Shown here in pieces: positions 39,853 through 63,669 of a stretch of 64,000 bases of DNA; position 1 is the first letter of the stretch; each line of letters begins with the position of its first letter. The DNA is from Mobula hypostoma (Eukaryota). The stretch spans positions 63,924,001 to 63,988,000 of the forward strand of contig NC_086097.1 in assembly GCF_963921235.1 (NCBI RefSeq), in the 5' to 3' direction. The notes beneath the pieces were generated by a model. That model did no database searches. It was given only the letters and a program-made list of their open reading frames with translations, and had not been told where the DNA came from. The position numbers and the translations under genes are program-made.

Positions 39853-39985
39853 TGGGGAATGCCATATATGCAACAGATTGCTGGAGACCATTCAGCTGAA
39901 TGAAGATGAGTACAGTATATTAAAAGAACATGTGATGAACGATGTCATACAAGGAAATGATGTTTTTAGGAAGACAACTCCTGCG
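39853..39985 (+). CDS. PRORP: PRORP exon with zinc-binding CxxC (GECHICNRLLETIQLNEDEY...FRKTTPA)
   Basis: ttttaacag / gtaagc; 133 nt; GxCxxC and RKTTP motifs. Confidence 0.94.
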
Positions 39986-40203
39986 GTAAGCAGTGCGGAT
40001 AATATAATGTGGAATTCTACAAGTTGTTTATCTATATTTGAAAACAATGACTAAAATAACCATTGCTGACTACTGTTGTCAAGATTTCCTTTTGGCAATT
40101 GCCTGACCAAAGCCTTATTTCACTCCTATTCAGTGAGGCCTCATGCTGCAACCAGGTGTGTACAAAATTAATCATTTGAGAGGGTGCAATAAGCTCTGAC
40201 TAC

Positions 40204-40579
40204 CGTGTACATACGTCTACTGATGCTTCTGGACACATCTTCAGTGATGTTCCTGGAATCATCGGGTGCTTCGGGTCTTTCAACATCATACAACCTCTTC
40301 CAGGGGACCCAGCCGGGGCTGATCAGACCCCAGCTTGTGTCCAGATGGCTAGCTACTTATGACTCCATGGCTCCCCCCTTTTTGAGCCTCAACCATCTTG
40401 AGGCCCTCTCTGCCGCATCGGTGGTACTGCGGATGGCTCTCCTCTTCCTCTCTCCCTCGATGCCCAAAATGCTGAAGGCTCTAACTAAAGAACGGGCTAT
40501 GAATCCCCTACAACCAACCTCCACTGGGAGACACCTTGCTCTCCATCCAGCCTGCTGACAGTTGCTGACCAGTCCTGCG
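40204..40579 (-). mobile_element. Hero-like (restriction-like endonuclease) non-LTR retrotransposon 3' fragment
   Basis: Minus strand CQQAGWRARCLPVEVGCRGF...AAERASRWL; candidate 7-bp TSD tgactac at 40197-40203 and 40580-40586. Confidence 0.72.
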
Positions 40580-41174
40580 TGACTACAAAGGTGGCATGCA
40601 GATAAAATATACTTAACTCTTTAAGCTGTTTAGAACATATTCTGAATGTTACTGGTGGTCAAACTTACTATTTGATGCATAGATTGGGATTTAAGTAAAT
40701 AGAAAAGGTGGTAAATGAATGGAGTTAAAACTAACTACCTTGCAAATGTTTTGCTCATTGTTGTTGTATCTGTGGGAAGATCATATTAACACAGGATGAA
40801 GAATTGGCCTGATTTTGTAACCCCTCACTGGGAATTGCATCAGGATTCCAGCATTTTGTGCAGAGAATGAATAAGCAATAGAATTGTTCTTAGCAGGATT
40901 GGCACTTAGGGCAGGCAAGCTGGAAAATTTGCAATTTCCTGGTATTCACATCGGAAAGGCCGGGATTTCCACACACAATGGTATGAAAGAGTCTGCCGGA
41001 AGACACTATAAATTGTAGATTTCAATATTCTGCAGAAGAATTTTGCTGTGTCATAGGTAAAGTGGCTACCAGTACTTGCTGACTTTTCTCCATCTGCTTT
41101 TTGTTTTCATTTCATCTCCCTTGGTTGGAAAAAGTGATGGACAATACTAAATTGCCCTTTCACAAACCAGGCAA

Positions 41175-44100
41175 AATCAGAATTCGGTTTATTATGTTGT
41201 GAAATTTGTTAACTTAGCAGCAGCAGTTCAATGCAATACATAATACTGTATAGAAAAGAGAAAAAAATAAAATAAAAATAGTAATAAGTAAATCAATTAC
41301 AGTATACATTGAATAGATTTTTAAAAATGCAAAAATCAGAAATATGTATATTTTTTTTAAAAATGAGGTAGTGTCCAATGTCCATTTAGGAATCGGATGG
41401 CAGAGGGGAAGAAGCTGTTCCTGAATCGCTGAGTGTGTGCCTTCAGGCTTCTGTACCTCCAACCTGATGGCAACAGCGAGAACAGGGCATGCCCTGAGTT
41501 CTGGAGGTCCTTAAAAATGGACACTGCTTTTCTGAGACACCGCTCCCTGAAGATGTCCTGGGTACTTTGTAGGCTAGAACCCAAGATGCAGCTGACTAGA
41601 TATACAACCCTCTGCAACCTCTTTTGGTCCTGTGCAGTAGCCCCCCCCCCCCCCACCAGACAGTGATGCAGCCTGTCAGAATGCTCTCCATGGTACATCT
41701 ATAGAAGTTTTTGAGTGTATTTGTTGACATGCCAAATCTCTTCAAACTCCTAATGAAGTATAGTCACTGTCTTGCCTTCTTTATAACTGCATCAATATGT
41801 TGGGACTAGGTTAGGTCCTCAGAGATCTTGACACCCTGAAACTTGAAACTGCTCACTCTCTCCATTTCTGATCCTTCTATGAGGATTGGTATGTGTTTCT
41901 TCGTCTTACCCTTCCTGAAGTCCACAATCAGCTCTTTCATCTTACTGACATTGAGTGCCAGGTTGTTGCTGCGACACCACTCCACTAGTTGGCATATCTC
42001 ACTCCTTTACGCCCTTTCGTCACCACCTGAGATTCTACCAACAATGGTTGTATCGTCAGCAAATTTATAGATGGTATTTGAGCTGTGCCTAGCCACACAG
42101 TCATGTCTATATAGAGGGTAGAGCAGTGGGCTAAGCACACATCCTTGAGATGCGCAGTGTTGATCATCAGTGAGGAGGATATGTTATCACCAATCTGCAC
42201 AGGTTGTGGTCTTCTGGTTAGGAAGTAGAGTAACCAGTTGCAGAGGGAGGTTCAGAGGCCCAGGTTCTGCAACTTCTCAATCAGGATTGTGGGAGTGATG
42301 GTATTAAATGCTGAGCAGTGGTCGATGTACAGCATTCTGACATTGGTGTTTGTGTTGTCCAGTTGGTATAAAGCCATGTGGAGAGCCATTGAGATTGCAT
42401 CTGCCGTTGACCTATTGTGGTGACAGGCAAATTGCAATGGGTCCAGGTCTTTGCTCAGGCAGGAGTTCAGTCTAGTCATGACCAGCCTCTCAAAGCATTT
42501 CATCACTGTAGATATGAGCGCTACTGGGCGATAGTCATTAAGGCAGCTCAATTTATTCTTAGGCACTGGTATAATTGTTGCCTTTTTTGAAGCAAGTGGG
42601 AACTTCCGCCCGTAGCTGTGAGAGGTTGAAAATGTCCTTGAATACTCCCACTAGTTGGTTGGCACAAGTTTTCAGAACCTTACCAGGTACTCCATCGGGA
42701 CCATCTGCCTTGCGAGGGTTCACTCTCTTTAAAGACAGCCTAACATCGGCCTCTAAGACAGAGATCACAGGGTCATCAGGTGCAGCAGGGATCTTCACAG
42801 CTATAATTGTGTTCTCCCTTTCAAAGCAGGCGTAGAAGATGGTGAGTTCATCTGGTAGTGAAGCATCACTGCCATTCATGCTATTGGGTTTCACTTTGTA
42901 GGAAGTAATAGAAACATAGAAACATAGAAAATAGGTGCAGGAGTAGGCCATTTGGCCCTTCGAGCCTGCACCGCCATTTATTATGATCATGGTTGATCAT
43001 CCAACTCAGAACCCCGCCCCAGCCTTCCCTCCATACCCCTTGACCCCCGTAGCCACAAGGGCCATATCTAACTCCCTCTTAAATATAGCCAATGAACTGG
43101 CCTCAACAGTTTCCTGTGGCAGAGAATTCCACAGATTCACCACTCTCTGTGTGAAGAAGTTTTTCCTAATCTCGGTCCTAAAAGGCTTCCCCTCTATCCT
43201 CAAACTGTGGCCCCTCGTTCTGGACTTCCCCAACATCGGGAACAATCTTCCTGCATCTAGCCTGTCCAATCCCTTTAGGATCTTATACGTTTCAATCAGA
43301 TCCCCCCGCAATCTTCTAAATTCCAATGAGTACAAGCCCAGTTCATCCAGTCTTTCTTCATATGAAAGTCCTGCCATCCCAGGAATCAATCTGGTGAACC
43401 TTCTTTGTACTCCCTCTATGGCAAAGATGTCTTTCCTCAGATTAGGGGACCAAAACTGCACACAATACTCCAGATGTGGTCTCACCAAGGCCTTGTACAA
43501 CTGCAGTAGTACCTCCCTGCTCCTGTACTCGAATCCTCTCGCTATAAATGCCAGCATACCATTCGCCTTTTTCACCGCCTGCTGTACCTGCATGCCCACT
43601 TTCAATGACTGGTGTATAATGACACCCAGGTCTCGTTGCACCTCCCCTTTTCCTAATCGCCCACCATTCAGATAATAATCTGTTTTCCTATTTTTGCCAC
43701 CAAAGTGGATAACTTCACATTTATCCACATTAAATTGCATCTGCCATGAATTTGCCCACTCACCCAACCTATCCAAGTCACCCTGCATCCTCTTAGCATC
43801 CTCCTCACAGCTAACACTGCCACCCAGCTTCGTGTCATCCGCAAACTTGGAGATGCTGCATTTAATTCCCTCATCCAAGTCATTAATATATATTGTAAAC
43901 AACTGGGGTCCCAGCACTGAGCCTTGCGGTACCCCACTAGTCACCGCCTGCCATTCTGAAAAGGTCCCATTTATTCCCACTCTTTGCTTCCTGTCTGCTA
44001 ACCAATTCTCCACCCACACCAATACCTTACCCCCAATACCGTGTGCTTTAAGTTTGCACACTAATCTCCTGTGTGGGACCTTGTCAAAAGCCTTTTGAAA

Positions 44101-45425
44101 ATCCAAATATACCATATCCACTGGTTCTCCCCTATTCACTCTACTAGTTACATCCTCAAAAAATTCTATGAGATTCGTCAGACATGATTTTCCTTTCACA
44201 AATCCATGCTGACTTTGTCCGATCATTTCACCGCTTTCCAAATGTGCTGTTATCACATCCTTGATAACTGACTCCAGCAGTTTCCCCACCACCAACGTTA
44301 GGCTAACCGGTCTATAATTCCCCAGTTTCTCTCTCCCTCCTTTTTTAAAAAGTGGAGTTACATTAGCCACCCTCCAATCCTCGGGAACTAGTCCAGAATC
44401 TAACGAGTTTTGAAAAATTATCACTAATGCATCCACTATTTCTTGGGCTACTTCCTTTAAGCACTCTAGGATGCAGACCATCTGGCCCTGGGGATTTATC
44501 TGCCTTCAATCCCTTCAATTTACCTAACACCACTTCCCTACTAACATGTATTTCGCTCAGTTCCTCCATCTCACTGGACCCTCTGTCCCTTACTATTTCT
44601 GGAAGATTATTTATGTCCTCCTTAGTGAAGACAGAACCAAAGTAATTATTCAATTGGTCTGCCATGTCCTTGCTCCCCATAATCAATTCACCTATTTCTG
44701 TCTGCAGGGGACCTACATTTGTCTTTACCAGTCTTTTCCTTTTTACATATCTATAAAAGCTTTTACAGTCCGTTTTTATATTCCCTGCCAGTTTTCTCTC
44801 ATAATCTTTTTTCCCCTTCCTAATTAAGCCCTTTGTCCTCCTCTGCTGAACACTGAATTTCTCCGAGTCCTCAGGTGAGCCTTACCCCCAACATCAATAC
44901 CTTACCCCCAATACCGTGTGCTTTAAGTTTGCACACTAATCTCCTGTGTGGGACCTTGTCAAAAGCCTTTTGAAAATCCAAATATACCACATCCACTGGT
45001 TCTCCCCTATCCACCCTACTAGTTACATCCTCAAAAAATGTTCTGAAGACCACGCCAGAGTTGCCATGCATCCGATGTCGCCTCCAACTTCATTTGAAAT
45101 AGTCTCTTTGACCTTGAAGATCGCCCTCCGCAAATCATACCTGGTTTTCTGGTACAGGCCTGGGTTGCCAGACTTGAATGCCACAGATCTAGCTTTCAGC
45201 AGATGACATACCTTCTGGTTCATCCACGGCTTTTGGTTTGGGAATGTACAGTAATTGTTCGAGTCCCATCAGTCATGCTGCGAAACAACAGATATCATTC
45301 ATGTGGGTGCAAAAAACATTATCCAGATAAAAGCCGGTGGAGCATTTACCTCAGTGGAAGTAACTGTGGGATGCATCAGTGCAGATCACTGACTCTACAG
45401 CATGTCCTTGGATTTAATCTTCCCT
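41175..45425 (-). mobile_element. Rex/Babar LINE (RT region) interrupted by a CR1 insertion at 42910-45039
   Basis: [46 protein letters not shown]; host sequence resumes across the CR1. Confidence 0.88.
42910..45039 (-). mobile_element. Young CR1-clade LINE, 5'-truncated, near-intact RT (491-codon ORF plus one upstream frameshift)
   Basis: QHGFVKGKSC, YLDFQKAFD, GVPQGSVLGP, FADDTKL; (TTTCTATG)n tail. Confidence 0.95.
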
Positions 45426-46444
45426 CTGAGTCACTCAGTGTATAGCCCAGTACTGCAGGACACAAAAACGCAACCAATGAACATTAATGTGTATTTGGCA
45501 ATTTTTTTTTTGTGTGGCTCATATCCTGATTTGAGGGGAAATGGTTAAATTGACAGACTGGACATCAATATGGGGTTCCTCATCTCACAATAAGGATGAA
45601 GAATTACTTAACAGACAAAGAGTAAAAGTTCACATCAGTACAATATATAAAAGAAAACCTAAGTCATTAAAGTGGTTTGTTTTTTTTAAACATCTTTGCC
45701 TAAACTGGAGACTTTAGAGTGCCTTTGTCTTCTTGATTTTAGCCAGAAGGTGGCACTTTTGTCATAGGAGCTTCACAGACTTGATTACAGGCAAGAGGAA
45801 GCTTAAGCAAACCGTTTTTTATGTTGGTATCTAGCTTGAAATTTTTTTATTGTCTTCAGAAAGTGGAAGCATTAATATTGTGGTTATTACAATACTGAAT
45901 TAGAGAACTAGATGGGAATTATAATTAATTGTGGAATAAGACGGATTGTCATAAAAACATCTGATTTACAATTGTTTAAGGACTACTGTTAGGCCTTCAA
46001 GCCAAAACAGATCCACAGCAATATTAGCCTCCCTGACTTTGACAGTTTCAACATACCTCGTGGGTGAGGTGATGGGCAAAAAGCATTTTAAGTTCAATCT
46101 TCCCTCTGTTTTGAGATATATATGTTTAAAATTTGTGGTATGGATCCTGTCCTCTGCATTATTATTTATCATTCTGCTAAATCCAATGCTACTCTGTCAT
46201 GGATGGTCCCAAATCTGACTGCCAAACGAGGAGGGTTGGGCATTGGGCTAGAAACTCCTTTGCTTAAAAACTCAGAAGAGCTACCGAAATGCCAACAGAA
46301 GCTCCAAAGACTTCATTCCTGGGAGAGAAGGGATCTTTGCCTTGAAGACGTATGAAGTCGTTTGCTGAAAGTGAAAGTCATAGAGCTGATCAACCTTCTG
46401 TCGGCGCAGGACAGAGGACTCTGGGGTGCTGCTGTCGGCTGCCT

Positions 46445-47525
46445 ATAGAAGGATAACCTATAGCACAATACAGGCCCTTCAGCCCACAAAGCTCTGCTGA
46501 ACAGGTCCTTACCTCAGAAATTACCTAGGGTTACCCATAGCCCTCTATTTTTCTACGCTCCATGTACCTATCCAGGGGTCTCTTAAAGGACCCTATCATA
46601 TCCACCTCCACCACCGTCACCGGCAGCCCATTCCACGCACTCAATTCTATCAGGTCACCTCTCATCCTCTGTCGCTGCAAGGAAAAAAGGCTGAATTCAC
46701 TCAACCTATTCTCATAAGGCATGCTCCCCAATCCAGGCAACGTCCTTCTAAATCTCCTCTGCACCCTTTCTATGGTTTCCACAACCTTCCTGTAGTGAGG
46801 CAACCAGAACTGAGCACAGTACTCCAAGTGGGGTCTGACCAGGATCCTATATAGCTGCAACATTACCTCTCAGCTCCCAAACTCAATCCCACGATTGATG
46901 AAGGCCAATACACCGTATGCTTTCTGAACCACAGAGTCAACCTGTGCAGCAGCTTTGAGTGTCCTATGGACTTGGACCCCAAGATCCCTCTGATCCTCCA
47001 CACTGCCAAGAACCTTACCATTAGTACTATAATCTGTCATCATATTTGACCTACCAAAATGAACCACCTCACACTTATCTGGATTGAACTCCATCTGCCA
47101 CTTCTCAACCCAGTTTTGCATCCTATCAATGTTCCGTTGTAACCTCTGACAGCCCTCTACACTATCCACAACACCCCCAACCTTTGTGTCATCAGCAAAT
47201 TTACTAACCCATCCCTCCACTTCTTCATCCAGGTCATTTATAAAAATCATGAAGAGTAGAGGTCCCAGAACAGATCCCTGAGGCACACCTCTGGTCACCG
47301 ACCTTCATGCAGAATATGACCCATCTACAACCACTCTTTGCCTTCTGTGGGTAAGCCAGTTCTGGATCCACAAAGCAATGTCTCCTTGGATCCCATGCCT
47401 CCTTACTTTCTCAATAAGCCTTGCATGGGGTACCTTATCAAATGCCTTGCTGAAATCCATATACACTACATCTACTGCTCTACCTACATCACATCCTCAG
47501 TTTTAGTCACATCCTCAAAAAATTG
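46445..47525 (-). mobile_element. CR1-clade LINE fragment
   Basis: GVPQGSVLGPLLF, KFADDTKVGG, RPHLEYC. Confidence 0.9.
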
Positions 47526-47599
47526 CTCTAGTAGGGCTGATGGGTTTAAGAAAAAGAAGAAATCCAATGCCTGCTTTCTCTTGGCATTCTCATCCTCTG

Positions 47600-48215
47600 T
47601 TACATTGAACTACTATAGGATTTTTCATTGCTGGTGATTCCAATACTTACATCAATGATCTCTCAAATGCGAACTCAGCTGAATTCATGAGGTTACTAGA
47701 CAGCCTAGATCTTACCCAGTCCGTCACTGAGCCCACTCATCGACTTGGAAATGAATTTGACTTAATAATGACAAAAGATTATTAATGTTTCTCTGTCTGA
47801 TATCACAATCTCTGATTTTTGTATACTTTTTGATGCCCTCCTATCATAACCAAGACCACGAAATAAATTAGTTTAAAAAAACTGGTTTCTTGATGCTGCA
47901 ACACTACTTGAATTCGCTGAATTGTCTGGTTTATATGACCTATATTGCTCACTGAATGAAATCATTGATTCTTTCAGCTTGATAAATATATTAAAAACAG
48001 TGTCCCCACTGAAGGTTAAAAAGGAATCACTTGGTAAAATGTTGTCATGGTTAAACAATTCTGTCCACAAACTTGAGATCATGCAGAATAGCAGAGAGAA
48101 AATGGAGGAAAACTGGACCAGAAGTCCACCATAATATTTTCAAGGGAAAATTAAATTCCTTGAATTCTGTTATATGCTCTGCAAGAAGAGGCCATTTTCC
48201 CAAAATTACTATAGA
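47600..48215 (+). mobile_element. L2-like LINE endonuclease-region fragment
   Basis: IAGDSNTYIND...LDSLDLTQSVTEPTHRLGNEFDL. Confidence 0.65.
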
Positions 48216-49262
48216 GAATAGCAGCGATTCAAGAGTCAGGCAGGAAGGCAGAGGGGGTGGTATGGCTCTGTTGGTAAAATATGAAGTTAAATCATTAGAA
48301 AGAGGTGACACAGGGTCAGAATGTGTTGAATTGTTGCAGGTAGAGCTAAGGAACTGCAAGGGTAAAAGCACCCTGATGGGAGTTGTATGATGGTATCGAT
48401 GTGGTAACAGTAGTAAAGATGTGGTCTACAAACTACAATGGGAGATAGAAAATTCATGCTAAAAGGGCAATGTTACAATAATCATGAGGAATTTCAACAT
48501 ACAGGTAGACTGGGAAAATCAAGTTGGTGCTGGATCCCGAGAGGATGAATTTCTAGAATGCCTATGAGAGGGCTTTTTAGAGCAGCTTGTGCTTAAGCTC
48601 ACAACGGGATCTGCTATTATGGATTAGGTATTGTGCAGTGAACCAGAATTGATTAGAGAGTAGAATTGTTTAGAGAACTCTTGGGGGGAGGGGGAAATGA
48701 TCATAATACGATAGAATTCACCCTGCAATTTGAGGAGGAGAAGCTAAAGTCAGATGTATCGGTATTACAGTAGTGTAAAGGGAGTTACAGAGGCATGAGA
48801 GAGGAGCTTGGAAAAGAACACTGGCAGGTATGACAACAGAGCAGCAATGGCTGGAAATTCTGGGAGCAATGTGGAAGGCACAGGATATACAGATCCCAAA
48901 GAGGAAGAAGTATTCTAAAGCCAGGATGCCACAACCGTGGCTGACAAGAGAAGTCAAAGCCAACATAAAAGCTAAAAGGAGGTAATATAATAGAGCAAAA
49001 ATTAGTGGGAAATTAGAGAATTGGGGAGCTTTTAAAAACCAGAAGCCAACTAGAAAGTCATAAAGAAGGAAAAGATGGAATATGAAGGTAAGCTAGCCAA
49101 TAATATTAAAGAGGATACCAAAAGCTTCAGTGGATATATAATGTGTACAAAAGAGGCAAAAGTAGGTATTGGAGCACTGGAAAGTGATGCTGGGGAGGTA
49201 GTAATGGGAAATAAGAAAATGGTGGACAAACTGAATAAGCATTTTGTATCAGTCTTCACTGA
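48216..49262 (+). mobile_element. CR1-clade LINE endonuclease-region fragment
   Basis: RQEGRGGGMALLVK, VELRNCKGK; same family as 11.7-12.7 kb. Confidence 0.85.
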
Positions 49263-49954
49263 TCAATATTGGCTGGCTGATATCCCAGAGTCCTCCATTG
49301 TTACCCCTGATTATATAATGGTTCAGTGGTAGATCTAATGCACCAAAGTGGTTTGCAATTAAGAGGTGGTTCTGGGTGTCTTTAGTATTGATTCTGAACC
49401 CTATGGAAATTATCATTAAGCCATATATAGCGAGGTAAACTACCTGATTGGTATCTGCTGCTTCTCTCAGGTAAATTTATTATCCTTCATTTTGAACATG
49501 TAAAACGGAGAGTCAACTATAGTTGGGGATTTCAAAATACTCCTTCAAGAATGGTATGATAGCACTTATACTGAGCATGTTCACCAAGTTGAACAGCAGA
49601 ACTACAATGCAGAGTGTGGTATTTAATGAGAAAATTGACATCAAGGACAAGGCTACTTGCCAGTCTCCCTGTTTTGTGTGCATCTGCTCAAGGCTATTGA
49701 TAGGAGTAACAACACAGTCCCTCAGGGGAAAAGTCCTGCTTTCGTACTAAGGACACCCCAACAAAAAGATGGACAAATCCAATCTTGCAAATTACCACCC
49801 TTCAGTTTACTGTCAGTTACTAGCAAATTAATTGATTGTCAAGAAGTACTAAAAATCTGGATTTAATTACCAAGAACATGAAGCTCAGTGGTAGATTAAA
49901 GATCTAGACCTCCCTGCTAACTGTTAATCTGTTGGGTCTCCAAAATCTAACATC

Positions 49955-51660
49955 TTTATCAGAATGCAATTATCAGCCTATATATAAAAAAAATTAAGGA
50001 AGATATAACAAGATGGAACCTTATTCCTTTTCTTGGTCCACGTTCAAGGATTGAACCTATTAAAATGAATATACTGCCCAGACTGCTGTATCTCTTTCAG
50101 ACCCTACCAACAGAGAATAACCAAAATCAATTCAATGAATGGAACAAGATGCTATCAAGATATATATGGCAAGGTAAAAGGCCTAGAGTTCATCTCAAAA
50201 CTTTGCAATTAGCCAAGGAAAAGGGGGGATGGGGCCTACCTTCTCTTAGAGATTACTATTTTGCAGCACAGTTGAGAGCTGTGCTATGCTGGTGCAATCC
50301 ATCATATGACACTCAATGGAAAAACATTGAGGAAAGGATACTTTCCAGCCCCATACAAGCAATTTTGGCTGATAACAACCTACAAAGTTACATAAATAAT
50401 ATTGATAACCCATGGGTGAAATAGACTCTTAAAATATGCAAAATTATTATAAAAGAATATAAACTAGAGAGAGACATTGCAATTCTTAGATGGTGTGCAT
50501 ATGACTCGGATTTTACGCCGAATAAACTGGATGCTAGATTTAAGGACTGGACAGCTAAAGGAATAACAGCTATTTGCAATATAATGAAAGAAGAAACACT
50601 GTTCAGTTTTGAAATGCTCAAAGAGAAACACTTATTAAAACAAGACTTTTATCGATATTTACAGATGCATCATTATGTTAATAGGACGGTTAAGAATGTA
50701 ACCAAGGCAAGTACATGTTTGATAGAAATATTTAGAAAAGCATATAATTCAGACAACGGTGGTAGAATAATTTCAATCGTGTATAAGGGTTTGTCAAATT
50801 TTAAAACACATTCGACTTCATACATTAAAACAAAATGGGAGACGGAAGGAGGGATAATAATATCTGAGGAAGACTGGACAATAATATGGAGGTATCAATG
50901 GAAGTGTATCAGTTCACAGAAATGGAGGGAGTTCGGGTAGAAAAACTTGATAAGATATTTTATAATACCCTTTCAGAAATCTCATTATGATAGTAACCTC
51001 CCTGTTTGCTGGAGAAATTGTGGAAATCAGAATGCAAACCATTATCATATTTTCTGGGAATGCCCCGTTATCAAAGACTATTGGAGTGGGATACACAATG
51101 CCCTACAAGACATCTTTAAATGTGAAATACCCTTAGAAAGTAAGATCATATATTTTGGGTATATACCTCAAGAATGGTTGAAAAGAGATAAATATTTAAT
51201 GAATATACTGCTGGTGGCTGATAAAAAGACCCTTACTGGGAAATGGTTATCAAAGGAGAGCCCAACTTTAAATGTATGGATAGAAATTATAATGGACATT
51301 TACAAAATGGAGACGATAACAGCATCTGTTGATCACAAGTTGGAACAATTTGATTCATACTGGGAAAAATAGTTTAACTACATAACACCTCATAGGTCTG
51401 ACTTTATTCTCACAAGTCAATGAATATGTTGTAAAAAAAAATCACTCCCTACTCTGTACATAGTTTTCTTCTTTTGATTGTTCTTTCTTTCCTCTCCTTT
51501 CTGTAAGTGTATACCTCAGATAAATATTATGTGGAGATTTGTGACAAATATGACTATATGATAGATATATATACACACACACATACACAGTATCTAGAAT
51601 ACATCTTATGGAAAGTTTTGTTTGATGAACTTCAATAAAAAATAAATTACAAAAAAAACA
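49955..51660 (+). mobile_element. L1-clade LINE 3' part (post-RT region, CCHC finger, poly(A))
   Basis: MNILPRLLYLFQTLP, KEKGGWGLPSL, CWRNCGNQNANHYHIFWEC; AATAAA and A-tail at about 51633-51660. Confidence 0.88.
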
Positions 51661-52699
51661 AAGTTTCATGATTCCTTAAAAGCTCAGTTGTTAGTAGGTC
51701 ATCTGTGTACATCAGGACAATTCTGAAAATTATTCTAATCTATTTAATTCCTTTTGCAGAGGTATTGACTTGAGTTTCTGAAAATACTGCAAACAACTGG
51801 TCAAGCAGCATCTGTAAGAACAGAAACCGTTAACATTTCAGATCACACAAATTCTGATGAATGACCGTACCCTTGAAATGCTAACTCTATTTCTCTCTCC
51901 ACAGATTTTGTCTTACTTACTAAGTGCTTCCAGCATATTTGGCTTTTCTGTTTCAAGTTTCTAATAGCTGCAGTTCTTGGTTTTGCATTGGCATAAATCT
52001 CAAATTACATTACTCTAACACTGGCCCTTCTATTCCTTGTAGCTGCTGGAAGAGAAACCACTACTATTTCAGGTTGAGACAAAAGATTCTGCTGATGCTT
52101 GAAATCTTGAAACACACAACATGCTGCAGAAACTCAACAGGTCAGGCAGCATCTACTACATGAAAAGAACTGTCAGCATTCCAGGCTAAGACCCAGTGAA
52201 TGTAAGGGAGGGGTACGAGTCTGATGTGTTTAAGACCAGGGTATGATCTTTGGGTGGCACAGTGGCGTAGTGGTTGGCGTAACGCTATTACAGTGCCAGC
52301 TATCACCAACAGGGGTTCAATTCCCACTGTTACCTGTAAGAGTTTGTACATTTTCCTCATGACCTCATGGGCTTCCCCCCCCAAGTGCACCTGCTTTCTT
52401 CCTCAGTCCAAAGACAAACACTTGGGGTTAGTGATTGTGGGCATGCAGTGCTGGCACCGGAAGTGTGGCCACATTTGCAGGCTGCCCAGTGTCAATCCTC
52501 ACTTTGACACAAACAACACATTTCACTATGTTTTGATGTACATGTGTTGAATAAAGCTAATCTTTAAAGATTAATCCCTCTTCCTCAGTAACTTCTCCAA
52601 GAGAAATAGAACTTCTACTACTGAAGATTCAGCTCTGCCCCCTCCTTAATCTCAAACTATCCCAGCACATTAACATGCCCCTCTCTTTTTCACTATCCC

Positions 52700-54310
52700 C
52701 TAATTCCTTCTTGACAAATATTGGTATAAGTGCTCATTTAGTACCTTGGTCACTTACTCTGACTCCAAGTACAAATTCCTTCTTCTATCCTGGAGTGGAC
52801 CTCCCTCTCCTTAGTTATCTTCTCTCAATGTAAGTATAAAACGCTTTGGGATTCTCCTTGATCTTGCTCACCAGAATATTTCATGGTCTCTTTTAGCCTT
52901 CTCAATTGACTGCTTAGAACTTCCCTAGTATCTTTACATTCCACCAGGGCCAAGTCTGATTTTAGTTTCCTAAACCTTGCTCATGCTTCCATTTTCCTTC
53001 CTGACTAAATTTCATTCTTTCAGGTCATCCAAAATTCCCTTACCTTACCATCCTTGTGCTGCCTTCATACTGGAACATGCTGGTCCTGAATTCTGATCAG
53101 CTGGTCTCTTTTTTTTTCCGGAAAAAAAAAAGTCCTCAAAACTAGGTCTTGTACGTCTCTCCTCTAGTTGAACTCTCCACATACTCTTGCAAAAACCTTT
53201 ATTGGATTCATTAAAGAAATCCCACCCCCTTTTAAGTTTGTTGTGTTAAGTGAAGTCCAATTAAAACTGGGGAAGTTAATATCCCTACCATTACAATACT
53301 GTTGCGTCTGCATCTTTCCATAATCTGTCTATATCTGTTCCTCCACTCTATTGGGAGACCTATAATATCCTATCAGCCTAATTGTATCTGTCCTGTTTGA
53401 GCTCCATTCAAATTGCCTCAGTGGATAAACCCTCCACTATGTCACCAGAGTACTGCTGTGATATTCATCCCTATAAATAATGCGACCCCACACCCCTAAA
53501 GACAATGAAACTCAGAAACATCGAGCAGCCAGTCCTGTTCTCATGCAACCAGGTGTGTCTAATGCAAACTCATTGTAATTCCATAGACTGATCCAGGCTC
53601 TGCTTTCATCCTCCTTTCCTATAATACTGGTTTTGAAATAAACACATTTATTAGCCTGGCCCTTGCTGTCCTTTCTCACAGTTTTATTTGTCGTACCATT
53701 TTTCTTGCTTTCAATCCTACCACCTGTTTCCATGCCACTGTGGTTCCCATCTCCCTGGCACGCTCATTTAAACCCTCCTGAGGGGCACTACCAAACTTCA
53801 CAGTGAGGGTTTTGCTTCCTGGACTGTTCAGGTGCAATTTCCCTTGTACTAGTCCCACCTGCTAAGGAAGAGTTAGCAGCTGTTGATCCATATATCGAAG
53901 CCCTTCCTGCTCCAGCTCTGGAGCCACATATTGAACTGCACCATGTATCAATTTCTCACCTCATTAGCAGTAATCCTGAGATTACAACTCTGGTAGTCCT
54001 GTGCTTTAGCTTTCTAACCAGCTCTGTAAAATCACTTTGCAGGATCTCATCCCTGCTGCTGCCTATGTCAATGGTACCTATAATGGACATGGCTGCTCAC
54101 CTTCCCCTCTCAAAATATCCTGTACTTACTGCGAGACACCCTTGACCCTGGCACCAGAGAGGCACTGCATAATCCTGGACTCTCATTTGCAGCACCTATC
54201 TGCGCACCTTACTCTCAAGGTCCCTTTCGCTATTGCTCTGCCTGTCTTTATCTTTTCCTCAGCTGGGCATGTTGTCTCTGACCCTGCTACAGGTACTGGC
54301 CTCTGAAAGG
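52700..54310 (-). mobile_element. Old degenerate CR1-like LINE
   Basis: Patchy similarity to the ORF1/endonuclease region of the 10.4-13.9 kb copy. Confidence 0.5.
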
Positions 54311-57187
54311 TCATCCTCAATATCCTCAATATCAAGCCTCACTCAGTCCAGGCAGCCACAGATCAATTTGATAAAAGGGAGAACAGGATTACTGCAGAAT
54401 AGGGGGAAAAATAAAGTGATTGCAATGCATTGCTAAATATAGGTAATGAACTAGAAGAATTAAGAGCAGTTGTATCACAGGGCAACAATTTATTAGGACA
54501 ACAGAAGATCTGGTACTGAGTGGAAATAGAAAGGAACACATTGCCCCAGATTTTGTAGCAGGAATAACAGTGGTCACCATTATTTAAGAATAAGTTAAAC
54601 AGCACTATCTAGCATCCATTCACATATTCAATGCATGTGGAAATCAGGAAATTGATGTCTGATTTTTTTTTTCCTCTGCTCAATTCCTTGATATTCTGAA
54701 ACCTCACTGGAGAGTCGTCATTAGACATATAGCATGTATACAGTGCTTGCTGCACAAAAAAACAAAAACTATCTGGAAAAGGTTGAGCTTGTATGTTCAA
54801 CTGCAGATGAATATTTGTGTAAAACTTAGTAGTGTACTTGTCTATGATGTGCTGTGCCGTTTGTATTTACAGTTAATGTTCATTTATTACTTGTCCTAAA
54901 TTGCCAATCAATTGCTAGGCTTTTTCAGGGGGCAGTTAAGAGACAACTGCGTTGATATGTATGGGGTTATATTTGGGCCTGACTGGGTAAGCACAAAAGA
55001 TTAACATTTCTGAAGAACATTGAAGTACCAAATACATAGATTTTATAACAGTCCAATAGTTTTTTATGCTCAAAATTACTGATATTGGCTTTCCAAAAAG
55101 CAAGTAAATAACATACACTGTAATAGATATGTCTTTCATTGCTCTGAAATTGCTGGCTTCATGCATCAATGCAATACTCTTCCTCTGTAACTAAGTCTTT
55201 TGCTGAGAGGCTGGCTTCCAGCACTTCAAGGTGGCCCATTGCAACAAAGGGGATCACTCAGCCCAGGCAGTTGCTGACTCACTTTGATGGTTGGTGAGCC
55301 TTTGCTCCAAGCCTGTCAATGTAATCGGAGCTATTGAATGCTTGTGAGGTTCTTTGACATTCAGTAACATGCGAAAAGTCTCTGCGGGGAGGGGGAGGGA
55401 ATAAAATGTTAATTTTTTTTTACATGTGCCACTTTAAAGACATCCACGTGGATGAAATCTATTTTAAACCAGCATGAAACTAATTTAAATAAATAGTTTA
55501 ATAAGTTATTGCTAACTCTTTTCCTCCAACATTTGCTCTCTCCCACTCATTTGAAAGAGGGCTGCTGGTCTTATGTTGTGTTTAACCCAGCATAAACTCA
55601 GTGGGGTGTGTTCTGAGTTTGAGAACTGGGAAATGTTCAGATGTTTGCTTGGAGCTGCACGTTGTCACTGGTGATGTAGGCTGATGTAAGCAATGGAAAC
55701 TAGATTTCCAGTGGAATTAATCCTGGTATAAATGTTAGTTTAACAGTGGAGGATCTGCTTCAATCACTTCTTCACATACATTTTTCTAAACTTTTAACTA
55801 CAAAAGTGACTTCACTGGTTTTGCTTGACATAATGGCTGCACTTATACTGCTCTTCTGCTGACCCCAGCAGACTTTGCGTTATGGGAGTAGTTCATTTCA
55901 GCTGGCAATGATTCAGTGCTCCAATCAACTTCAGTGTTTCTAAATTTAAAAAAAGATGAAATTAATTTAAAGGTTCAAATACGATTTCTTTCCAAAATGC
56001 TTATTACAGCAGGTTTCTATACAAGCCACAGTTAAGGAAGGGTCTCAGCAATAATGTGTACTAAGATTAAATTGGTTGCTAAGTCCCCATTGAGACGAGT
56101 ATATGAATAAGGTATTTGGATTGCTAATCAGTTTATCATTGTCACATGTGAAGAGATACAGTGAAAAGCTTTTGCTTGCATGCCATCTAGACAGATCATT
56201 CTGCATGTAAATTCACTGAGACAGCAGAAAATGGGGGGAGCAGGATACAGAATATAATATTACAATTACAGAGGAACTGCAGTGCATGTAGACCAAATAA
56301 AGTGGATGGGCCATGATGACTTCTATTGGGAGGCGAAGGATTCATTAAGCTGTAGCCTTGGAGAAACTGGCACATTCAGAAAATACTGAAAGGAAAATAA
56401 CCATCATTGGATCACTATTGAAAGTTTACTAAAAGTAGAAGTCTTGGCTGATTTAATTCCTCCATTCCCAAAACTGCTACCTATCCCAATTAAATCTTGA
56501 ATTGGCAGAATTGAATGACTTGGTGACACTGGATTTTTGAAAACTTCCTCAGACTAATTTTTTTTTACAAGCTCTGCACAAAATGATACATATTCATTGG
56601 ACTAATACTGATTTGTATATGAATATTTGTAAGTGCACTAACAGATTATTCTAAAGTTCAAAGTAAATTTATTATCAAAGTACATCGGTCACCATATTCA
56701 ACCCTGAGATTCATCTTCTTACAGGCATTCACAGTAAGTTCAAGAAACGCTGTCCCCAACAGGACGGACGAACAGCCAATGTGCAAAAGATGACAAACTG
56801 TGCAAATACTAATAATAATAAGAAATAAATATTGAGATATGAGATGAAAAGTCCTTGAAAGTGGGTCTATAGGCTGAGGGAACAGTTTAATGTTGGAACA
56901 AGTGAAGTTATCCCCCTGGTTCAAGAGCCTGATGGTTGAGGGGTAATAACTGTTCTTGAAACCAGTGGTGCGGGTTCTGAGGCTCCCATACCTCCTTCAA
57001 AGATTCAAAGTACATTTATTATCAAAGAATGTATAAGTTATACACCTTGACATTTGTCTGCTTACAGGCAGCCACAAAGCTTAATCCCTAATGGCAGCAG
57101 TGAGAAGAGAGCATGGTCTGGGTGGTGCTTTCCTACTCTGTGTAGATGTGCTCAATGGTGGGGAATGCTTTATCAGTGTTAGGGCAG

Positions 57188-57625
57188 ATTCAGTCAGTCA
57201 GTGGGTGCCGTCCCAAATCCGGGATGGGTGGCTATGCACCTCCATCTTCTTCGATCTTGGGACAGCACCGAGTACAGCCTCTCCTCCAGTTTGTTCTCGC
57301 TGGCCGCCTTGGCACGCCCACCACTGCCCCCGCCGATCTCAAGCCCGAGGCCATGTTGGCCTCCGGCCATGGCCGCTTCTTCAAGCTCGGCCCTTCCTTG
57401 GGCAGGTCCGGGCACACGGTGCAGCGCCCCCAAGTTCATCATATCTCTTCTAACATAGCATATGATTTTTAGACACACGGTGAGGCTTTAATCTCTTTCA
57501 CAGAAGATGGTCGTTGGCTCACAAGGAGCTCATTCACCCTTTGTCAGGTCTCGTCTTTTTTAGTCCTGCTGGGTGTCCTCACACCCTCCTCACCAGACTA
57601 AGTCCAGTGGGGGAGCCCGCCCAAG
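57188..57625 (-). mobile_element. Internally deleted RTE-like remnant hosting a captured gene fragment
   Basis: RRDMMNLG...QDRRRWR RTE-type C-terminus and (CTGA)n tail on minus strand. Confidence 0.5.
57262..57425 (-). pseudogene. Circularly permuted fragment of a CYHR1/ZFTRAF1-like first coding exon
   Basis: Encodes CTVCPDLPK then ...[12 protein letters not shown]; recalled CYHR1 reads [20 protein letters not shown]. Confidence 0.75.
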
Positions 57626-57730
57626 TCGTCGACCACTCGACCACGGTCCCCGGCCGAGCACCGGGCACCCGCCCCCCACCGAATCTCTCCAAGCATCCGG
57701 CACCTGACCGAAAACCATGGTCGAGTGAAG

Positions 57731-57774
57731 TTGCACTGATGATGTTGCCTACTTAGGTAACGAAATGTCTGCAA
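57731..57774 (+). ncRNA. Minimal type-I hammerhead ribozyme with intact core
   Basis: ttgca-CTGATGA-t-gttgcct actt aggtaac-GAAA-t-GTC-tgcaa; stem I 5 bp, stem II 7 bp. Confidence 0.8.
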
Positions 57775-59049
57775 GCTAATAAGCCAGCTCAGCGAGCTAC
57801 TCAACAATAATCAGTTTATCATTGTCACATGTGAAGAGATACAGATTATGGAACAATGATTCCTGAGAGAAACAAGTTACCACTTCTTTCTCAAAGTACA
57901 AGCAAGCATGCGAGTCAGTTACTTGTAGCTGGGTATGGTTAGTTAGTTGGCAATTTACCAAGAACAGACAGTACTGCTGTCGTGGCAGAAATGGCTTGAC
58001 CCTTTGGTCCCTAATCGGTAATAATGCCTTAAATTTTCTTCCACAGTGGGGAAGGCTTTATCAGTGATGGACTAGGCCATATCCACAACGTTTTGAGGGC
58101 CTTTCCATTCAAGGCAATTGTTGTTTTGATACCAGGCCAAGACACAACCAGTCAATATACCCTCCTCCACACATCAATAGAAGTTTTGTCAAATGTTTAG
58201 ATGACATGACAAATCTTCGCAAACTTCTAAGAAAGTAGAGGCATTGCTGTGCTTTCTTCATAATAGCACTTGCATGCTGGATCTGGAACAGATTCTCTGA
58301 AATGATAGCACTGAGGAATTTAAAGTTGCTGACCCTCTGCAACTCTAACCCCGATGAGAAATGGCTCATGGACGTATGGTTTTCTCCTCCTGAAGTCAAT
58401 AATCAGCTCTTGCTGACCTTGAGTGAGAGATTGTTGTAGCACCACTCGGTCAGATTTTCAGTCTGTCTCCTATATGCTGATTTGTCACCACCTTTGACTT
58501 GGCCAGTGAGAGTGATGTCATCGACAAACTTAAGCATGACCCTGGAGCTGTGCTTAGCCACACAGTCATAAGTATAAAGTGAGTAAAGCAGGGGGTTAAG
58601 CCCACATCCCTGCAGTGCTCCTGTGCTGGTGGAGATTGTGGAGGAGATGTTTTTGCCAATCCAAACTGGCTGGGGTCTGCAAGTGAGGAAATTGAGGATC
58701 TATTTGCATAAAGAGGAATTAAGGGCAAGGCTTTAAAGCTTATTGATAGTTTTAAGGGGATAATATTATTGAACGCTGAGCTGTAGTCAATGAAGAGCAT
58801 CCTGATGTATGCATCTTCACTGTCCAGATGTTCCAGGTTTGAGTGAAGAGCCAATTAAATAGAATGTACTGCTGACCTGTTGTGCTGGTAAGCAAACTGG
58901 AGTGGATCCAAGTTGCTTCTCAGGCAGGAGTTGATGTAGGAGAGTATTCCACATATTTCCATAGTCTACCTGCATATACAATGATTTTATATTCTTTGTT
59001 AGAAAAGATTTGTAGCTCGGATTGAGGATGTTGTACATGTCATTTGAAG

Positions 59050-59093
59050 TTGCATTGATGATGTTGCCTCCTTGGGTAACGAAATGTCTGCAA
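59050..59093 (+). ncRNA. Second copy of the hammerhead motif (core C3 changed to U)
   Basis: ttgca-TTGATGA-t-gttgcct cctt gggtaac-GAAA-t-GTC-tgcaa. Confidence 0.6.
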
Positions 59094-59173
59094 GCTAATA
59101 AGCCAGCTCGGCGAGCTACTCAAGAGCATTTTATATTCTGCCAGCACAATGTATGTTTTCAATTTTTGTTTAG

Positions 59174-59281
59174 GAATTGCAAGATTTCCAGTCCTTCATG
59201 AAAAATCGTTTGCCTTTTGATGTTGTAATTGATGGATTAAATGTCGCCAACATCTCAGCTAAGGGTATGCAGTCCAGAATT
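59174..59281 (+). CDS. PRORP: PRORP exon starting the NYN metallonuclease domain (ELQDFQSFMKNRLPFDVVIDGLNVANISAKGMQSRI); gene continues beyond window
   Basis: tgtttag / gtgagt; 108 nt; PFDVVIDGLNVA catalytic-Asp motif. Confidence 0.94.
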
Positions 59282-63475: not shown

Positions 63476-63669
63476 CACATCAAAGTTGCTGGTGAACGCA
63501 GCAGGCCAGGCAGCATCTCTAGGAAGAGGTACTGTCGACATTTCGAGCAAGGGTCTTGGCCTGAAACGTCGACTGTACCTCTTCCTAGAGATGCTGCCTG
63601 GCCTGCTGTGTTAACCAGCAACTTTTATGTGTGTTGCTTGAAATTCCAGCATCTGCAGATTTCCTCGTG
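63476..63669. mobile_element. Palindromic Penelope-derived short element
   Basis: 14-bp TSD actcgataccaaca (63462-63475, 63670-63683); about 75-bp inverted arms. Confidence 0.8.

What the first reader, a model, noticed from the sequence alone, without database searches (positions are those of the whole stretch)
57726..59123. Two sense-strand hammerhead ribozyme copies 1.3 kb apart, just upstream of the PRORP catalytic exon
Seen: 79-bp direct repeats at 57726-57804 and 59045-59123 with 4 mismatches. Copy 1 has every hammerhead core element: stem I ttgca/tgcaa, CUGAUGA (57736-57742), a 7-bp stem II with tetraloop, GAAA (57762-57765) and GUC (predicted cut after 57769). Copy 2 keeps both stems (its stem II change gives a U-G wobble) but has C3 to U, and ends 50 nt before the 59174 acceptor. 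Stem III is only AUGU with no loop. Established: minimal hammerheads from Penelope-like elements cleave as tandem dimers pairing through a palindromic stem III. Inference: both copies lie in one PRORP pre-mRNA, so they could form an intramolecular dimer and cut the intron co-transcriptionally, affecting processing of the RNase P transcript. No Penelope ORF is evident next to either copy.
Basis: partly seen in the sequence, partly recalled or inferred. Interest (0 to 1): 0.75.

Follow-up and report, generated by a model that had tools for sequence, protein, structure and literature searches.

The report
Duplicated Penelope ribozyme debris in PRORP
The two hammerhead-shaped motifs are real, but they are decayed end-pieces of a known kind of jumping gene (Penelope-like), one likely copied from the other by a later insertion accident, and they most likely do not cut the RNase P gene's RNA.

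Summary
The sequence observation holds: 79-bp repeats with 4 mismatches, copy 1 with a full minimal type I hammerhead, both sense-strand in a 19.2-kb PRORP intron. Both are ends of a Penelope-like element (PLE) family of likely a few hundred copies. Copy 2 is an ordinary 132-bp PLE insertion with an inverted tail and a 12-bp target duplication. Copy 1 shares a loop variant found nowhere else in the genome and sits inside a later insertion of an unrelated repeat, beside a second locally copied 37-mer. It is likely a templated local duplicate. The AUGU stem III is a CpG-decayed ACGU palindrome; copy 2 has uncompensated C3U. A relative's copy 2 has lost U16.1 at that site. Published PLE minimal hammerheads cut weakly even as dimers, or only with PLE protein. 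Cleavage was not testable here. The scan has reported this kind of motif on other DNA, including this genome. Ordinary.

The parts
57726..57807 (+). Copy 1: PLE pLTR fragment with a complete minimal type I hammerhead core; likely a local templated duplicate of copy 2's ancestor
57736..57769 (+). Copy 1 core: C3-A9, 7-bp stem II, G12-A14, AUGU (family majority ACGU), C17 at 57769. An ATG at 57742 opens a short frame as described for Poseidon PAc; here it has a stop at codon 5
58996..59127 (.). Copy 2 insertion (132 bp): inverted PLE tail 58997-59034 on the minus strand joined to a sense piece 59035-59127; C3U at 59055, C17 at 59088
58984..58995 (+). Left copy of the 12-bp target-site duplication of copy 2
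59128..59139 (+). Right copy of the 12-bp target-site duplication of copy 2
57191..57725 (-). Unrelated high-copy ~540-bp repeat with an (ACTG)n tail; copy 1 abuts its 5' end; its five relatives examined have no hammerhead there
57808..57844 (+). 37-bp exact copy of 56125-56161, joined directly behind copy 1, with CAG microhomology to the target
56125..56161 (+). Source of the 37-bp piece, in its original repeat context
57179..58045 (+). Outer insertion: low-copy repeat fragment (57179-57190 plus 57842-58045) split by the inner insertion 57191-57841 at a 6-bp duplication CAGATT; flanked by a 21-bp duplication (57158-57178, 58046-58066) in an older LINE-like repeat
59174..59281 (+). PRORP exon with the VIDGLN motif
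39853..39985 (+). Preceding PRORP exon; the intron is 39986-59173

Best explanation
Both motifs are decayed end-fragments of a Penelope-like retroelement, and copy 1 is likely a local duplicate of copy 2 made during a later, unrelated insertion, so the pair most likely does not cut PRORP pre-mRNA to any extent that matters. Shown: family membership, copy 2's inverted-tail insertion with a 12-bp target duplication, the variants private to the two copies, and the nested position of copy 1 with a second locally copied piece. Inferred: a PLE transcript was reverse-transcribed from its two preferred start points to give copy 2, which then gathered a few mutations. Later a ~540-bp non-LTR repeat inserted 1.2 kb upstream; its growing cDNA end switched to nearby DNA, copied 82 nt of copy 2 and 37 nt from 56125, and closed on a CAG microhomology. 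Inferred: in the parent element the hammerhead works as a dimer through an ACGU palindrome or with the element's protein; here it is a passenger.
For: Dispersed family: 39 other matches at 88-94% among 40 scored of 209 candidates; 58 exact matches to a family 20-mer. Coding sequence upstream of family copies resembles HTH_animal (score 0.98; family on 52-57% of cluster members) and GIY-YIG (0.94; on 11-51%) (one source of evidence). In 13 of 15 paired loci the arms end at positions 84-86 and 123-125, the two-ended tail signature of PMC11167929; copy 2 has the same two ends. The loop II variant pattern has 2 matches in the genome, both here; 0 of 74 other copies have it; the copies differ by 4, each from its nearest relative by 6. 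Removing 57179-58066 restores a continuous older repeat (13 hits span the joint); 4 of 4 relatives of the low-copy repeat run continuously across the inner insertion point. CpG decay hits essential G12 in 20 of 74 copies, like other CpG sites (27-34%). Organism D's copy 2 has U16.1 to C (same 384-nt contig covers the exon). Literature: a monomer shows no cleavage and dimers or trimers low cleavage (PMC4209133); the Poseidon hammerhead cuts only with PLE protein and no RNA-seq ends map to its site (PMC11167929).
Against: Copy 1 is one of only 13 genome-wide matches with intact core and stem II arms and is kept in organism B with 1 change in 145 nt, in loop II, against 1.6-2.1% in flanks (about 3 expected, not significant). 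Non-CpG core positions vary less than all unconstrained positions (14 of 300 against 59 of 570, p 0.004); against unconstrained positions inside the motif there is no difference (14 of 300 against 12 of 180, p 0.41). A direct-orientation pair is unusual for the family (0 of 60 other loci). Published templated insertions usually come from within 15 bp of the site, here 1.1-1.2 kb, so the copying step is atypical and inferred. Pfam itself did not recognise the ORF fragments, and no full-length element was found. No cleavage or RNA-end data.
Confidence: 0.9

Rival explanations
1. The accidental duplication made a working cis double hammerhead: copy 1's intact core pairs with copy 2's GUC and cuts at 59088, 85 nt before the acceptor, enough to affect PRORP splicing or output.
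For: All pairs needed for the nested dimer are standard or G-U pairs. Core 1 is intact here and in organism B. Both copies are sense in one intron. Intronic ribozymes that tune splicing exist (CPEB3, PMC10919898, start of abstract seen).
Against: Stem III has two tandem wobble pairs after CpG decay; second core is U3-G8, uncompensated; organism D lacks U16.1 at this site; intact PLE dimers cut weakly in vitro or need PLE protein; 1.3 kb of competing RNA lies between the copies.
Confidence: 0.04
2. The two copies are the direct-repeat ends of one PLE insertion that carried 1.2 kb of other DNA between them, or lost its ORF.
For: Intact PLEs have direct pLTRs; the copies share private variants.
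Against: Copy 2 has its own 12-bp duplication. The DNA between the copies continues an older repeat that begins upstream of copy 1. Copy 1 lies inside a separate 6-bp duplication with another element. No PLE coding sequence lies between them.
Confidence: 0.03
3. Two independent PLE insertions landed 1.3 kb apart by chance.
For: The family is dispersed over many contigs.
Against: 0 copies in 600 kb sampled outside the window; the shared loop variant occurs only in these two; copy 1 has no tail partner or target duplication of its own.
Confidence: 0.03

Closest known systems
Minimal type I hammerheads (min-HHR) of metazoan PLE pLTRs, Cervera and De la Pena 2014, PMC4209133 (parts 1-2 of 4 read)
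   Same: Helix II 7 bp, helix I 5 bp, extra nucleotide before G10.1-C11.1, palindromic 15.2/16.2 in the family, mostly solo copies, pairs on opposite strands 100-700 bp apart.
   Different: The two copies here are in direct orientation 1.3 kb apart without an ORF; palindrome decayed to AUGU; copy 2 has U3 with G8, not the U3-A8 covariant described there.
Poseidon PLE of Anolis (PAc), Frangieh et al. 2024, PMC11167929 (parts 1-2 of 4 read)
   Same: C-terminal GIY-YIG; ATG at the start of stem II opening a frame through the pLTR end; two insertion ends about 40 nt apart; AT-rich target.
   Different: No full-length element or clade tree obtained here; cut site 28 nt from the ATG against 26.
Non-LTR retrozymes, PMC7229834 (12 passages) and bioRxiv 10.64898/2026.07.22.740005 (parts 1-2 of 5)
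   Same: Non-coding, PLE-related, type I hammerhead, dimer-dependent in vertebrates.
   Different: Not a tandem repeat; the spacer is a mosaic of unrelated repeats.
Templated insertions at L1 integration sites, bioRxiv 10.1101/2024.08.27.596794 (3 passages) and PMC11702581 (4 passages)
   Same: Short (<250 bp) pieces of nearby genomic DNA copied into a non-LTR insertion.
   Different: Templates here lie 1.1-1.2 kb away on both sides, not within 15 bp; germline, non-L1 element.

Membership tests
PLE minimal type I hammerhead | Core C3UGAnGA9, G12AA, A15.1-U16.1, H17 | tested here: met
   Copy 1 complete
PLE minimal type I hammerhead | Same core in copy 2 | tested here: not met
   U3 with G8; C in 70 of 74 family copies
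PLE minimal type I hammerhead | Helix II 7-8 bp, helix I 4-5 bp, extra nucleotide before G10.1-C11.1 | tested here: met
PLE minimal type I hammerhead | Palindromic helix III for dimer pairing | tested here: inconclusive
   Family majority ACGU is a palindrome; both window copies AUGU pair only through two wobbles
PLE minimal type I hammerhead | Located in the pLTR of a PLE | tested here: met
   Family copies lie downstream of GIY-YIG-like and HTH_animal-like coding sequence
PLE minimal type I hammerhead | Self-cleavage | not testable with these tools
   Needs in vitro assay or RNA-end data
Penelope-like element (EN+) | Two-ended insertions with a 30-40-nt tail and inverted partial repeats | tested here: met
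   13 of 15 paired loci; 24 of 60 loci divergent pairs; copy 2
Penelope-like element (EN+) | Single ORF with telomerase-like RT and GIY-YIG | tested here: inconclusive
   Only broken C-terminal fragments found; Atlas look-alikes support, Pfam scan blank; RT core not seen
Non-LTR retrozyme | Tandem units each with a hammerhead | tested here: not met
   Copies are separated by 1.24 kb of unrelated repeats
Conserved intronic ribozyme (CPEB3 or amniote hammerhead type) | Single locus conserved above neutral across species | tested here: not met
   Multi-copy family; core lesion in organism D copy 2; only close relatives could be examined

The most novel reading that the evidence does not exclude
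A template-switching accident built a double hammerhead from transposon debris inside the PRORP intron: copy 1's intact core cuts copy 2 at 59088, 85 nt before the acceptor of a catalytic exon, perhaps only when PLE protein is present, linking transposon activity to mitochondrial RNase P output.
Probability: 0.03. Interest if true: 0.65.

Novelty: new member of a known kind. Interest (0 to 1): 0.1.

Why it matters
As found, little: it is one more decayed PLE hammerhead family in a vertebrate intron. The small useful points are the reconstructed origin of the direct pair by local copying from more than 1 kb away, and the corrected test site (59088). If the pair did cut, it would show a route by which transposon debris becomes a cis-acting intronic ribozyme in an essential gene.

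Tried and rejected
Rfam: no hammerhead match. Loose core pattern: 22 overlapping matches against a shuffle mean of 13, uninformative. Folding of the native 1,441-nt RNA puts the double hammerhead 17.2 kcal/mol above the ensemble, but controls with the ACGU palindrome and no spacer are equally disfavoured (16.1-16.8), so this does not discriminate; two stack-energy lines in that output are a script error. Pfam on three scans of ORF fragments: no relevant family. No intact autonomous element among the 20 and 12 loci fetched. Sequencing runs: no RNA holder listed. One contig of a run guessed to be RNA matches 57747-57900 without differences and crosses 57769, but with only 23 letters on the 5' side, under the 31 needed, so it is not counted. 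Presence of copy 1 in organisms C, D and F could not be told: no junction-spanning piece was listed, which proves nothing; a D contig matching 57756-57807 without differences is unexplained. The 37-mer as a target duplication of a 1.65-kb insertion was rejected because the repeat continues past 56161 in other copies. tRNA scan of the 540-bp repeat: none in 6 loci. Literature: 'PRORP' plus 'hammerhead' gave 17 papers, 10 listed, none by title or abstract start on an intronic ribozyme in PRORP; 'hammerhead Penelope shark intron' gave 1 review. Supplements were not read; those of PMC4209133 and the 2026 preprint may list this family.

Full report
Observation. The two 79-bp repeats are at the stated coordinates with 4 mismatches. 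The 44-nt cores fold better than shuffles (z -3.6 and -2.5) but the whole 79-mers do not. A strict descriptor finds copy 1 and one unrelated locus in 664 kb and nothing in 5 shuffles. Rfam gives no hammerhead match. The exon at 59174-59281 matches human mitochondrial RNase P protein 3, and the previous exon ends at 39985, so both copies are sense in one 19,188-nt intron.

What the repeat is. It is dispersed: 41 matches from 40 scored of 209 candidates, 39 outside the window at 88-94%. A family 20-mer has 58 exact matches; it is kept in 2 of 16 protein-selected and 6 of 14 BLAST-selected copies, which suggests roughly 130-460 copies. None was found in 60 stretches of 10 kb outside the window. 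Upstream of many copies lies broken coding sequence whose Atlas look-alikes carry HTH_animal (0.98) and GIY-YIG (0.94) on part of their members; Pfam scans were blank and no intact element turned up. An ATG at the start of stem II opens a frame to the end of the repeat in a family copy, as described for the Poseidon element PAc; copy 1 has a stop in it, copy 2 does not. Of 60 non-redundant loci (chosen by best match, pattern or protein, not at random) 36 are solo, 24 divergent pairs, 0 direct pairs. In 13 of 15 paired loci examined the arms end at positions 84-86 and 123-125, and 11 of 15 share a 7-15-nt word across the flanks (no shuffle control; short ones may be chance). This is the two-start tail signature of PLEs.

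Copy 2. It spans 58996-59127: an inverted tail 58997-59034 joined to the sense piece, between two copies of a 12-bp word. It is an ordinary short PLE insertion. Organisms B and D hold it on contigs that include the exon, with the family base C at 59124.

Copy 1. Its loop II variant occurs twice in the genome, in these two copies, and in 0 of 74 other copies; the two differ by 4 letters and each from its nearest relative by 6. It abuts the 5' end of an unrelated ~540-bp repeat with 1,608 candidates, whose five relatives examined have no hammerhead there, and is followed by an exact 37-bp copy of 56125-56161. These three pieces interrupt a low-copy repeat at a 6-bp duplication; 4 of 4 relatives of that repeat run straight across. 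That fragment in turn lies between 21-bp duplications in an older repeat, and 13 hits span the joint when it is removed. Inference: during insertion of the 540-bp element the growing end copied two nearby stretches of the same strand, 1.2 kb downstream and 1.1 kb upstream. Templated insertions are described for L1, usually from within 15 bp, so the distance here is atypical; a repair polymerase could equally have done the copying. Organism B has copy 1 with its junctions, 1 difference in 145 nt, in loop II.

Decay. Among 74 ungapped copies (10 of 84 dropped for gaps or partial cover) helix III reads ACGT 24, ATGT 24, ACAT 13, other 13: CpG decay of a palindrome. Essential G12 is altered in 20 of 74, like other CpG sites. 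In a subset of 30 copies, non-CpG core positions vary less than all unconstrained positions (4.7% against 10.4%, p 0.004), but not less than unconstrained positions inside the motif (4.7% against 6.7%, p 0.41); the excess lies in C/G positions 3' of the motif. That subset is skewed by how duplicates were assigned, and selection on source elements would also give a conserved core, so this neither shows nor excludes selection after insertion. 14 of these 30 keep all 11 core letters, so an intact core in copy 1 is not surprising, although only 13 places match core plus exact stem II arms.

Mechanism of a dimer. In a double hammerhead A15.1 of one copy pairs with U16.1 of the other, so each core cuts the other copy's site (follows from the topology; the dimer idea is, the cross-over is my deduction). 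Core 1 would cut after 59088; the site at 57769 would depend on core 2 with U3-G8. C3-G8 is needed in PAc (C3G and G8C abolish cleavage); natural core variants lower the rate; a strong loss for C3U is recalled, not read. All required pairs are possible, but the folding model cannot rank native against ideal constructs. In organism D copy 2 has U16.1 to C, which would break the one plausible site. Intact PLE minimal hammerheads showed no monomer and low dimer cleavage, and PAc cut only with its protein, with no RNA-seq ends at the site. That slow intronic cleavage often leaves splicing intact is recalled and was not read (listing only).

Comparison and verdict. It is a member of the PLE minimal hammerhead class by anatomy and context; activity is untested. 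It is not a retrozyme (not tandem). Earlier notes of this scan report the same kind of motif on other DNA, two in this genome; my reading was fixed before I saw them. Searches found no paper on a hammerhead in a PRORP intron. Neutral debris 0.9; functional dimer about 0.04; interest 0.1.

Noticed in passing
A relative (L096) has a 12-bp flanking duplication.
   Followed up: partly
window 57842-58045; G000 C2:28652613-28661557 and C62:70044263-70053972: Low-copy repeat (17 candidates); two pairs of same-strand copies lie 8.7 and 9.6 kb apart, as LTRs would.
   Followed up: no
L087 9837 (-): A second, unrelated minimal-hammerhead descriptor hit with an ACGU helix III in the randomly placed sample.
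   Followed up: no
L097-L099 (G000 C1:140.86-140.95 Mb): Three related copies of the same PLE fragment within 90 kb, two with long shared flanks, suggesting a segmental duplication.
   Followed up: no
window 57788-57800 and 59107-59119: A small palindromic hairpin follows the hammerhead in both copies and the family; loop II (AGCU) is also palindromic in the family.
   Followed up: no
window 63476-63636: 74-nt inverted repeat, 93% complementary, 18 nt apart.
   Followed up: no
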